From the NCBI RefSeq assembly GCF_054482525.1, contig NZ_CM137006.1: a stretch of 64,000 nucleotides of DNA; one strand, written 5' to 3'. Shown here in pieces: positions 27,001-30,000 of this stretch. The position numbers are program-made. Position 1 is the first letter of the stretch. Each line of letters opens with the position of its first letter.

Positions 27001-30000
27001 TATCTCTTCGATGAGCGAGTTATTAAAGAATATGGCGCTCAACGGATACGGCATTGCCTGGTTACCGATCTGGTCGATCGTCGATGAACTACAGACCAAA
27101 CGTCTGATATGCCTTGATGCTGCTAAATTGACAGTCCCCATTCAGGCTTATATTTACCGAATGAACACCCGACTGAATAGAACCGCCGAGAACCTCTGGC
27201 GTATTTTACAGGAACATATGCCAGACGATTTAATCCAGCAGATATCAATGGAAGAGCCAGCACGCCGCAATTGACGACGTGCAATAAATATCCTCCGGCA
27301 TAGCCGGAGGTTTTTCAAATGCGCCTATAAGGCTCTCTTACCAGCCGCGCCCTAACAGGCGCACACGATCTGACATTTGCATCCAACTTCGTTACTTACG
27401 GTCCGTAAACGGGCTGCCCGGACAGGGAATCGATAACTGCTCTCCCATTTTATCCTCTTCAAGCTGGTGCTTTATGTAATCCTGTATCTTCGCCGTGTTC
27501 TTACCCACTGTATCGACGTAGTCCCCCCTGCACCAGAACTCCCTGTTCCTGTATTTGAATTTCAAATCACCAAACTGCTCGTAAAGCATCAGACTGCTTT
27601 TCCCTTTCAGATATCCCATAAACCCGGATACGCTCATTTTGGGCGGGATCTCCACAAGCATATGGATATGATCTGCACAGCATTCAGCTTCCAGAATCCG
27701 TACGCTTTTCCACTCACACAGCTTTCTCAAAATACTGCCTGTTGCTCTACGCTTCTCTCTGTAGAACACCTGTCTTCGGTATTTTGGCGCAAAAAACTAT
27801 GTGATATTTACAGTTCCATCGGGTGTGCGCTAAGCTCTTTTCGTTCCCCATTGGGACCCCCTTTTGATTTCTTGTTTGACACTTGCAGTTGCCAGACCGC
27901 AAGGTGTTTTAACAAATCAAAAGGGGTTTTAATAACTGGCTCAAAGCTGAAAGCTTTCCGGAACCCCCAGCCTAGCTGGGAGTTTTCTGTGCACAAAAAA
28001 ACCCTGTAAAAAACTTACAGGGGTATAAGGCTTAGCCTAACTTGCGTCTGTTGCATGGTGCCGGGTGCCTCCCGGTGAATTCAGTCGGTGTCACTGAACC
28101 CGCGTAGGCTTCGCTCATAACATAATAAATGCTATGTACACCAGTCGCCCCACCGCACAGGGGGATTCACCACACGGCGCACTTTTTAACAAATATCCCT
28201 CCGGCCAGACAATAATAAACATAATGAATTGTGATCTTCTTAACAGTTTTAAAGTGTTACAGATAACATGCCAAGTAATTGCTTGTTTTTTCATCAATAG
28301 GAAGACCACACCAACAACCCCAGCTATCAGCCAGAACCGACATTATCCGGCTGATAAAATCTACCATCACTCCAACACCAATCACCGCCTGTGCCAGATC
28401 GCGTTTCTCAAACTTTTTAATCTCTGTTGCCACTCTGCGGGTTTTCTTTTTGAATTTTGAAAATACCAAATATCGTGACGTTTCTTTGGGGGATGAGCTA
28501 TCAAGCGGGAACGATCTGCCTACAGAGAAAGTCAGCCAGACCACTCTGCAAATTATCCCCGAAAGGCTCTGTGGCTGATATGCGCCGGGCATGGCGCAAT
28601 GGGCCAGTGGCAGTGTGTGATGGTGGCCCTTACTGGATTTGAACCAGCGACCAAGCGATTATGAGTCCTCTTACCACTGAGCTAAAGGGTTGGAGAACGC
28701 AATATCACCTGTCTTATATGATTACACCCAGAATTTCCCGGACTGTCTTGTCAAAACATTCAGTCTCCAATTCCCACCAATAGCAAGACGGTCACTATGA
28801 CAGCATCTCCGGAATGAGCTCAGGGCACGGGGGTTTACCGAGGTTACTTTTCCAACGAAGTTTCTCAAACGCAGGCGTGATAACATTCAAACTTAGGATC
28901 TCAGTTGCTATCTTTTCCCATGTCTTACGGATTAATGTCATCGGTTGCATACAAATCGCTACAAGCTGCATCAAGGCACATGCTTCATATGTACAGTACA
29001 CCAAGATGGATAGGTGTTTCACCTAATCCTAGCTCATTTCAGGCAGGCTCAACAGGCTGCAGCCCGCATGTTTAAGGGCGCAGGTTATCAGCAGGTTATA
29101 AGCTGACCGGATACATTCCGGCAAAGAAAAACCTTGCAGCGATGAAAGCCGTTTCGGTAATGCAATGACGATAAAGCTGTCCTGTATATATGTGCTTCGC
29201 CTCAAACGCTTGCCGTTTTGGTATTGTGCACATGCCGTCTGAACGATGTGGAGCCAGAAAAATGGATGCGTTATGTCATTGAGCATATCTAGGACTGGCC
29301 GGCAAACCGGGTACACGATCTGTTGCTCTAAATAGTTGAGCTGGCCTCTCAGTAAATATCAATACGGTTTTGGTGAGCCGCTTACCACTGAAGCATCACT
29401 TCGGCAGGTAGATTTCTGCAGGCAGAATGGCGCTTACCTTAGCGATAAGCGCGTAAATGTGGTTATTCAATACCTGTGGTGACTGTAAAAGTGCGCGTTT
29501 GCTGCGGTGCAACCTGAATCAGCGTGCCATTACGTTGCGCGGCAAGATACCCCTCAGGTCGACAGGTTGCTGGTAATGCAAAGGCGGCTACCTGTTGCTC
29601 GCCGTTATAAAGGATCCAGCGTGTCACATAATTTAGTTCAGCACTGGAGAAACGAGTAACAAACGTAGTGCCATCGGGAGCGATCATGCGAAACTCTGGC
29701 TGATCTGTGTAAGCGTCCAGTTTGTCTGCAAAGAAGACTATTTCTGGATCATAAAATTCCGGTTGATTCAGCGTCGACAGAGAGGCTTCTCCCTGCATAA
29801 TCCGTTGATTAAACGCCAGCCACTGGGCGGTGGGATTAACATGCGAAGGTACTGATTCACGCAACCTTAATATTTCGTCCGGTATATTCTGGCTGAACGT
29901 AGCATTTGGTATATATGCATAATTCATGTGGCACATATATTGTAGTGGCATATCTACAGAAGCCAGATTGGTTACGGCCATCTTAATATCGAACAATGTA

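What the first reader, a model, noticed from the sequence alone, without database searches (positions are those of the whole stretch)
27330..28030. IS200 copy with tnpA inactivated by a +1 shift in a T-run
The TnpA N-terminus (MGNEKSLAHTRWNCKYHIVF) and the rest of the protein are in different frames, joined at the A6/T6 run at 27791..27796. The element's structured 5' end is retained.
Basis: partly seen in the sequence, partly recalled or inferred. Interest (0 to 1): 0.3.

Follow-up and report, generated by a model that had tools for sequence, protein, structure and literature searches.

The report
Frameshifted IS200 transposase pseudogene
This is an ordinary, already annotated dead copy of the small mobile element IS200 in an E. 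coli chromosome: one extra T in a run of Ts breaks its only gene, while its ends and structured leader are still intact.

Summary
On the minus strand, window 27283..27995 is a full-length IS200C element, 712-713 bp. Its tnpA (27851..27392) is 460 nt and changes frame at a T6 run (27791..27796). Twelve intact copies read here have no T6: IS200C has T5 or GTATTT, Y. pestis IS1541A has T5 and Salmonella IS200F has T4C. Deleting one T restores a 152-aa Y1/HUH transposase. As it stands, the product is 34 aa and lacks the HUH motif and the catalytic tyrosine.

It is not a sequencing error. The exact T6 64-mer occurs in 198 E. coli RefSeq records, and the two T6 records inspected (100% identical over 761 bp) carry PGAP's "frameshifted" pseudogene flag. 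The insertion next to a HypT-like regulator is old, since its right junction is in 346 of 5426 genomes. T5 alleles survive at the same locus, so T6 arose after insertion.

The left-end hairpin, the 5'UTR stem-loop (Rfam STnc490, 143 bits) and the right-end hairpin are retained.

Verdict: already known, low interest. Side note: in 14 of 15 IS200-group loci read, the element abuts the T-tract of a terminator-like hairpin.

The parts
27283..27995 (-). Full-length IS200C element (712-713 bp including the extra T). Published IS200 numbering fits with nt 1 = 27995.
   Evidence: It is 98.3-99.0% identical end to end to four intact IS200C copies at unrelated plasmid loci, and similarity stops at 27283 and about 27995-27999. 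Matches at other loci end at query position 83, which is 27283. The hairpins fall at nt 12-34 and 70-138, as published for IS200 (PMC4513863).
27392..27851 (-). tnpA pseudogene, 460 nt
   Evidence: PGAP annotates 'IS200/IS605 family transposase, frameshifted' in two 100%-identical RefSeq records.
27791..27796 (-). T6 run (A6 on + strand), the site of the +1 insertion; intact copies have T5, GTATTT or T4C
27747..27851 (-). Reading frame actually open from the ATG: 20 native residues, 14 out-of-frame residues, then a stop (34 aa)
27392..27790 (-). Remainder of TnpA in the +1 frame. By alignment to solved Y1 transposases it holds the HUH motif (H61, H63) and the catalytic Tyr125 with Gln129.
27962..27984 (-). 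Left-end hairpin (IS nt 12-34). In published IS200 this is a bidirectional terminator that blocks read-in transcription. It carries one C>T at 27981, which turns a G-C pair into G-U.
   Evidence: The function is taken from PMC4513863.
27858..27927 (-). [quoted passage not shown]
   Evidence: Fold (z = -3.5). Rfam STnc490 at 143 bits. Function from PMC4513863 and PMC5435999.
27842..27932 (+). Inferred art200 (STnc490) antisense RNA region, starting at IS nt 153/154. Placed by homology only.
   Evidence: Published coordinates (PMC4513863) mapped onto the window. IS nt 152-199, which should hold the art200 promoter, is identical to the Salmonella IS200F copy.
27292..27310 (.). Right-end hairpin. 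It is terminator-like on both strands; on the + strand it is followed by TTTTT, 18 nt after the stop codon of the HypT-like gene.
   Evidence: invariant in all copies aligned.
27996..28205 (-). Left flank: an STnc100-like RNA whose terminator hairpin (28002..28022) and T-run abut the IS directly. This is the insertion target.
   Evidence: Rfam RF02076 at 136 bits; terminator scan; flank fold.
26330..27274 (+). Right flank: a HypT-like LysR regulator converging on the IS, with its stop codon 8 nt from the IS end. It is 59% identical to K-12 HypT.

Best explanation
This is a fossil copy of the insertion sequence IS200C. It inserted just after the T-tract of the terminator of an STnc100-like RNA and next to a HypT-like regulator gene, and it has been inherited vertically since. 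In one haplotype of this locus, replication slippage lengthened a T5 run in codons 19-20 of tnpA to T6. Translation now leaves the frame after residue 20 and stops after 34 aa. No HUH/Tyr single-strand DNA transposase is made, so the copy is non-autonomous. Shown here: the lesion itself, its absence from intact copies, its presence in 198 independent assembly records, and the intact ends and leader structure. Inferred: the slippage mechanism, the loss of activity, and residual mobilisability in trans. In most of the listed T6-carrying genomes this is the only IS200 copy, so no transposase source would be present.
For: T6 versus T5, GTATTT or T4C in all 12 intact copies read. The CDS is 460 nt, and deleting one T restores 152 aa that hit Y1_Tnp and transpos_IS200 far above their cut-offs. 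All catalytic residues lie downstream of the shift. The exact T6 64-mer is in 198 records, and 30 listed assemblies are 100% identical over 761 bp. PGAP flags 'frameshifted' in both T6 records inspected. Alleles at the same locus with T5 and an intact 459-nt tnpA (EBJ003, NQ3, HS13-1) share the locus haplotype at 27527, 27523, 27423 and 27402, so T6 is derived after insertion. The right junction is in 346 genomes and the left junction in 249. In 22 of the 30 T6 genomes listed this is the only IS200 place in the record. Other IS200C copies carry other frameshifts, a 2-nt deletion and a +1 A in an A-run, so decay of tnpA is common.
Against: No reads were available for the window itself. Loss of function is inferred from sequence, not measured. 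A low level of spontaneous +1 ribosomal slippage on GUU UUU U (tRNA-Phe can re-pair one base on) cannot be excluded. The direction of change at the locus (T5 to T6 rather than the reverse) rests on parsimony over four haplotypes.
Confidence: 0.93

Rival explanations
1. The extra T is a homopolymer error of sequencing or assembly, and the gene is really intact.
For: Homopolymer length errors are common in long-read assemblies. Five assemblies have T5 at this very locus on a nearly identical haplotype.
Against: The exact T6 64-mer recurs in 198 records from many laboratories and years, while 2404 records from the same kinds of assemblies show T5. T6 is found with the locus haplotype, with at least 55 listed genomes having T6 plus the locus-specific left flank. 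The T5 allele EBJ003 also differs by a linked SNP at 27741, so it is a true allele and not noise.
Confidence: 0.02
2. The T6 run is a recoding site: ribosomal +1 frameshifting or transcriptional slippage restores full-length TnpA at a useful level.
For: GUU UUU U allows tRNA-Phe to re-pair in the +1 frame. Several IS families do use programmed frameshifting, for example the IS3 transposase annotated 'programmed frameshift'.
Against: No IS200-group copy read here needs it, because intact copies are in a single frame (homologues). From the sequence, the 0-frame A-site codon is UGC, not a stop or a rare codon, and no Shine-Dalgarno-like stimulator lies upstream. By general knowledge, six Ts is below the run length at which E. 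coli RNA polymerase slips efficiently. Known IS frameshifts are -1, not +1.
Confidence: 0.03
3. The copy is kept for its RNA and terminator parts, not as a transposon. The 5'tnpA/art200 RNAs and the two end hairpins would have been exapted to regulate host genes or to insulate the HypT-like gene from the prophage debris. This is compatible with the frameshift being real.
For: The left-end hairpin, the UTR stem-loop and the right-end hairpin are intact. There is 1 substitution in the roughly 254 non-coding nt against 5 substitutions plus the indel in 459 coding nt. The right-end hairpin plus T5 sits 18 nt after the HypT-like stop codon. In Salmonella the IS200 5'UTR gives a trans-acting sRNA (PMC5435999; bioRxiv 10.1101/2024.06.26.600842). 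The locus is fixed in 346 genomes.
Against: Divergence is too low (about 1%) for the coding versus non-coding contrast to mean anything. Another haplotype of the same locus (NQ3, HS13-1) has changes and a deletion near the Shine-Dalgarno sequence (27861, 27855, 27853). In NQ3 an IS4 sits inside the left end, and in HS13-1 the left end is missing. No expression data exist for this locus.
Confidence: 0.1

Closest known systems
IS200C (E. coli member of the IS200 group, IS200/IS605 family), as named by PGAP for WP_000526135.1
   Same: It is 98.3-99.0% identical over the whole 711 bp, with the same left-end and right-end hairpins, the same leader and the same 152-aa TnpA once one T is removed.
   Different: It has T6 instead of T5 (a frameshift). 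It also has three amino-acid changes (Y110D, Y143C, G150D) shared with T5 alleles of this locus, and one C>T in the left-end hairpin. Y110D also occurs in an intact-annotated copy at potE|pgm.
Salmonella IS200 (IS200F) and Yersinia IS1541A
   Same: Same architecture and the same end hairpins. The DNA is 91% and 87% identical respectively. Published IS200 landmarks (terminator nt 12-34, UTR stem-loop nt 69-138, art200) map exactly (PMC4513863).
   Different: They are different subtypes, and their tnpA is in frame (T4C and T5).
IS608 / ISDra2 TnpA (solved Y1 HUH transposases; 2A6M, 2VJV, 2XM3)
   Same: The repaired protein aligns over about 125 residues, including HUH and the Tyr helix (E = 1e-18 to 1e-14). 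This implies the same single-strand 'peel and paste' chemistry.
   Different: Those elements also carry tnpB and use defined tetra- or pentanucleotide targets. IS200 carries tnpA only, and here it makes no TnpA at all.

Membership tests
IS200/IS605 family, IS200 group (IS200C) | Encodes a Y1 HUH transposase (Pfam PF01797 / NCBIfam NF033573) | tested here: met
   The repaired translation scores 121.5 bits against a cut-off of 23, and 141.6 bits against 55. As it stands, the ORF is split over two frames.
IS200/IS605 family, IS200 group (IS200C) | HUH motif and catalytic tyrosine present | tested here: met
   H61-I-H63 and Y125 (with Q129) align to the motifs of the solved TnpA proteins, but only in the frame downstream of the shift.
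IS200/IS605 family, IS200 group (IS200C) | Subterminal hairpins at both ends instead of terminal inverted repeats | tested here: met
   Left-end hairpin 27962..27984 and right-end hairpin 27292..27310. Both are invariant or nearly so in all copies.
IS200/IS605 family, IS200 group (IS200C) | Near-identity over the full length to named copies at unrelated loci | tested here: met
   98.3-99.0% over 717 nt to four plasmid copies annotated IS200C.
IS200/IS605 family, IS200 group (IS200C) | No target-site duplication | tested here: met
   The left flank ends ...GGGTTTTTTT and the right flank starts GCACGTCG, with no direct repeat.
IS200/IS605 family, IS200 group (IS200C) | Autonomous element (intact tnpA) | tested here: not met
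   A +1 frameshift gives a 34-aa product. PGAP marks it as a pseudogene.
IS200/IS605 family, IS200 group (IS200C) | Transposition activity, or mobilisation in trans | not testable with these tools
   This needs a mating-out or papillation assay.
IS200 leader RNAs (Rfam RF01405 STnc490 / art200 / 5'tnpA) | Sequence and structure match above Rfam's gathering score | tested here: met
   143.1 bits against a gathering score of 56, model positions 1-124 of 124. The hit is on the tnpA-sense strand, whereas art200 is described as antisense (PMC4513863). Which strand Rfam models was not resolved.
IS200 leader RNAs (Rfam RF01405 STnc490 / art200 / 5'tnpA) | The RNA is expressed from this copy | not testable with these tools
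   No transcriptome data are available.
Programmed frameshift site | The frameshift is the conserved state of the gene family, with slippery and stimulatory elements | tested here: not met
   All intact relatives are in a single frame, and no stimulator is evident in the sequence.

The most novel reading that the evidence does not exclude
The transposase-dead IS200 is the only copy in most of the listed T6-carrying genomes and is fixed beside a HypT-like regulator. It might persist because its non-coding parts have been exapted: the leader as a trans-acting sRNA pair (5'tnpA/art200), as in Salmonella, and its two end hairpins as terminators separating the regulator gene from the adjacent prophage debris.
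Probability: 0.08. Interest if true: 0.4.

Novelty: already known. Interest (0 to 1): 0.08.

Why it matters
It matters little. It is a correctly read pseudogene that NCBI's annotation pipeline already flags in the two identical RefSeq records inspected. Its practical use is as a stable marker: the T5/T6 state and the IS-flank junctions distinguish lineages. It is also a reminder that this copy cannot supply transposase. The more useful by-product is the sharply defined insertion context of IS200-group elements, directly after the T-tract of a terminator-like hairpin and, at the chromosomal loci, in the same orientation as the upstream gene. This bears on how the family's founding member chooses targets.

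Tried and rejected
1. Looking for an empty site by joining the two flanks gave no contiguous match. The left flank is variable prophage or island debris (IS100, IS66 and DUF3927 remnants). K-12 has only a 59%-identical HypT in a different context. The boundaries were therefore set from copies at unrelated loci instead.

2. I first read the hairpin at 27292..27310 as the regulator gene's own terminator. The alignments show it is the IS right end.

3. I considered that Y110D (RGYY to RGDY) had already killed the enzyme before the frameshift. Solved homologues have Y, Y and C at that position. I rejected this as unsupported, because the same change occurs in an intact-annotated copy at another locus, potE|pgm.

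4. I considered that the T5 alleles on the window-like haplotype (EBJ003 type) were revertants or gene-conversion products. The linked SNP at 27741 makes a simple pre-T6 ancestor equally parsimonious, so this is left open.

5. The Rfam tRNA hit at 28624..28691 scores 30.7 bits, but ARAGORN finds no tRNA. I treat it as a remnant and did not pursue it.

Full report
**1. What is in the sequence**

Read on the minus strand, window 27283..27995 is an IS200-type insertion sequence. From the ATG at 27851 the frame reads MGNEKSLAHTRWNCKYHIVF and then leaves the transposase frame inside ATA GTT TTT TGC. It stops 14 codons later, at TAG 27749..27747. The rest of TnpA (APKYRRQVFY...TDRK) lies in the +1 frame down to 27392. 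Deleting one T gives a 152-aa protein. That protein matches Pfam Y1_Tnp (121.5 bits, cut-off 23) and NCBIfam transpos_IS200 (141.6 bits, cut-off 55). It also aligns over about 125 residues to solved Y1 transposases: Sulfolobus TnpA at E = 1.5e-22, and IS608 and ISDra2 TnpA at E = 1e-18 to 1e-14. The HUH motif (H61, H63) and the tyrosine helix (Y125, Q129) all lie downstream of the shift. The product actually encoded is therefore a 34-aa stub.

**2. Is T6 abnormal?**

Yes. Four intact IS200C copies at unrelated plasmid loci have T5 and are otherwise 98.3-99.0% identical to the window over the whole element. Y. pestis IS1541A has T5 and Salmonella IS200F has T4C. Chromosomal IS200C copies have either T5 or a synonymous GTA TTT variant.

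- Among 5426 complete E. coli genomes, 198 records contain the exact T6 64-mer. Another 2404 match it only at 95-99%, meaning the one-base gap with or without a SNP.
- Among plasmids, 1 of 656 matching records has T6. That copy is a 3'-truncated IS200 at a different locus, with the consensus left-end hairpin and other SNPs. It is most simply a second, independent slip at the same run.

**3. Not an artefact, and already annotated**

Thirty listed assemblies are 100% identical to the window over 761 bp that include locus-specific flank. In the two records inspected, PGAP annotates 'tnpA, IS200/IS605 family transposase, frameshifted' as a pseudogene. The window is 99.8-99.9% identical to those chromosomes over 5.6-6.8 kb.

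**4. Boundaries and anatomy**

Similarity to copies at other loci begins in the T-run at 27995-27999 and ends at 27283. With nt 1 set to 27995, the predicted RNA fold puts hairpins at nt 12-34 and 70-138 (MFE -57.5 kcal/mol, z = -3.5). These are the positions published for the IS200 left-end terminator (nt 12-34) and the Shine-Dalgarno-sequestering stem-loop (nt 69-138) (PMC4513863).

Rfam STnc490 matches 27861..27984 at 143 bits. The literature describes STnc490, now called art200, as antisense to this leader, starting at nt 153/154. That would be window 27843/27842 on the + strand. I place it by homology only, and I did not resolve which strand Rfam models.

The right end carries an invariant hairpin (27292..27310) that looks like a terminator on both strands.

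**5. History of the locus**

- The right junction (IS right end plus the 3' end of a HypT-like LysR gene) is present in 346 genomes, and the left junction in 249.
- In other genomes the same insertion has a different left side: IS4 inside the left end in NQ3, and a CMY-2 region replacing it in HS13-1. In both, tnpA is an intact 459-nt gene.
- Five genomes, including EBJ003, carry T5 on a haplotype one SNP away from the window.
- All four haplotypes share 27527 A>G (synonymous), 27523 T>G (Y110D), 27423 A>G (Y143C) and 27402 G>A (G150D) relative to the plasmid consensus.

The insertion is therefore old, and T6 arose later within one haplotype. Y110D is not evidence of earlier inactivation, because an intact-annotated copy at potE|pgm has it too.

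**6. Mechanism**

The most likely event is replication slippage adding one T to a T5 run. This is an inference from the homopolymer context and from the second, independent T6 copy. The consequence is that no TnpA is made, so the copy is non-autonomous.

Both ends are intact apart from one C>T at 27981 in the left-end stem, which makes a G-U pair. TnpA supplied in trans might therefore still move the element (inference). In 22 of the 30 T6 genomes listed this is the only IS200 place in the record, so in those genomes it is immobile.

Bypass by recoding is unlikely. Relatives are in a single frame, the A-site codon is an ordinary UGC, no stimulator is visible, and six Ts is short for transcriptional slippage (general knowledge).

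Decay of IS200 tnpA is common. Two of seven chromosomal copies sampled at random are flagged as frameshifted at other sites: a 2-nt deletion, and a +1 A in an A-run.

**7. Comparison with the known, and novelty**

This is a member of IS200C in every structural respect tested. It fails only the 'autonomous' criterion. It is already flagged in RefSeq annotation, so novelty is 'already known' and interest is low.

The most novel reading not excluded is that the leader RNAs and end hairpins are exapted, as the 5'tnpA sRNA is in Salmonella (PMC5435999; bioRxiv 10.1101/2024.06.26.600842). The data here have no power to show selection, and other haplotypes of the locus have damaged left ends.

**8. 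Seen in passing**

In all 15 independent IS200-group loci read, the 60 nt to the left of the element fold into a stable hairpin. In 14 of them a T-run abuts the element directly. At all seven chromosomal loci sampled the upstream gene is co-oriented and ends 40-90 nt before the element. In the window the terminator belongs to an STnc100-like RNA. A 2025-26 preprint reports terminator-like sequences upstream of IS200/IS605 elements in aggregate. The junction-level regularity seen here would be worth quantifying.

Noticed in passing
window 27996..28022; loci L003-L006, L011-L020 (60 nt left of each IS): In 15 of 15 independent IS200/IS1541 insertion loci, the sequence just left of the IS folds into a stable hairpin. 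In 14 of 15 it is followed by a T-run that abuts the IS, so the element sits right after a terminator-like site. At 7 of 7 sampled chromosomal loci (after creD, fadR, gndA, carB, dgcZ, potE, araE) it is co-oriented with the upstream gene. A preprint (10.1101/2025.07.22.666184) reports the aggregate signal for the family.
   Followed up: partly
window 27991..28205 (-): There is a full-length match to Rfam STnc100 (136 bits, gathering score 47) directly left of the IS. Pieces of it recur up to 7-8 times in O157:H7 chromosomes, which suggests a prophage- or island-borne RNA.
   Followed up: no
window 27292..27310 (+ strand reading) and 27272..27274: On the + strand the IS right-end hairpin is followed by TTTTT and lies 18 nt after the stop codon of the HypT-like gene. 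The only other terminator-like site nearby (27184..27201) is inside that CDS, so the IS probably now supplies that gene's terminator.
   Followed up: partly
window 26330..27274 (+): The gene PGAP calls hypT here is only 59% identical to K-12 HypT. It sits in a different neighbourhood (Asp/Glu racemase and an anaerobic C4-dicarboxylate transporter instead of iadA-yjiGH), so it is a paralogue or a divergent island-borne allele.
   Followed up: partly
window 28624..28691 (-): A weak tRNA-like match (Rfam 30.7 bits, anticodon-stem positions missing) that ARAGORN does not call. It is probably a degenerate tRNA remnant within prophage or island debris.
   Followed up: no
L011 (NZ_CP026724.1 99783..100119): A second T6-bearing IS200 was found: a 3'-truncated copy on an IncF plasmid. 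It has a different flank and the consensus left-end hairpin, which suggests the T-run slips recurrently.
   Followed up: partly
L014, L017, L018, L020 (IS position about 200): Four of the seven other chromosomal IS200C copies sampled have GTA TTT instead of GTT TTT at codons 19-20. This is a synonymous change that breaks the T5 run and should make those copies less prone to this frameshift.
   Followed up: no
L009 (NZ_CP024720.1) and L008 (NZ_CP026491.1): At the same HypT-side locus, other strains have an IS4 inserted into the IS200 left-end hairpin (NQ3), or a CMY-2 beta-lactamase region replacing the left end (HS13-1). The left side of this IS is therefore a hot spot for further insertions.
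   Followed up: partly
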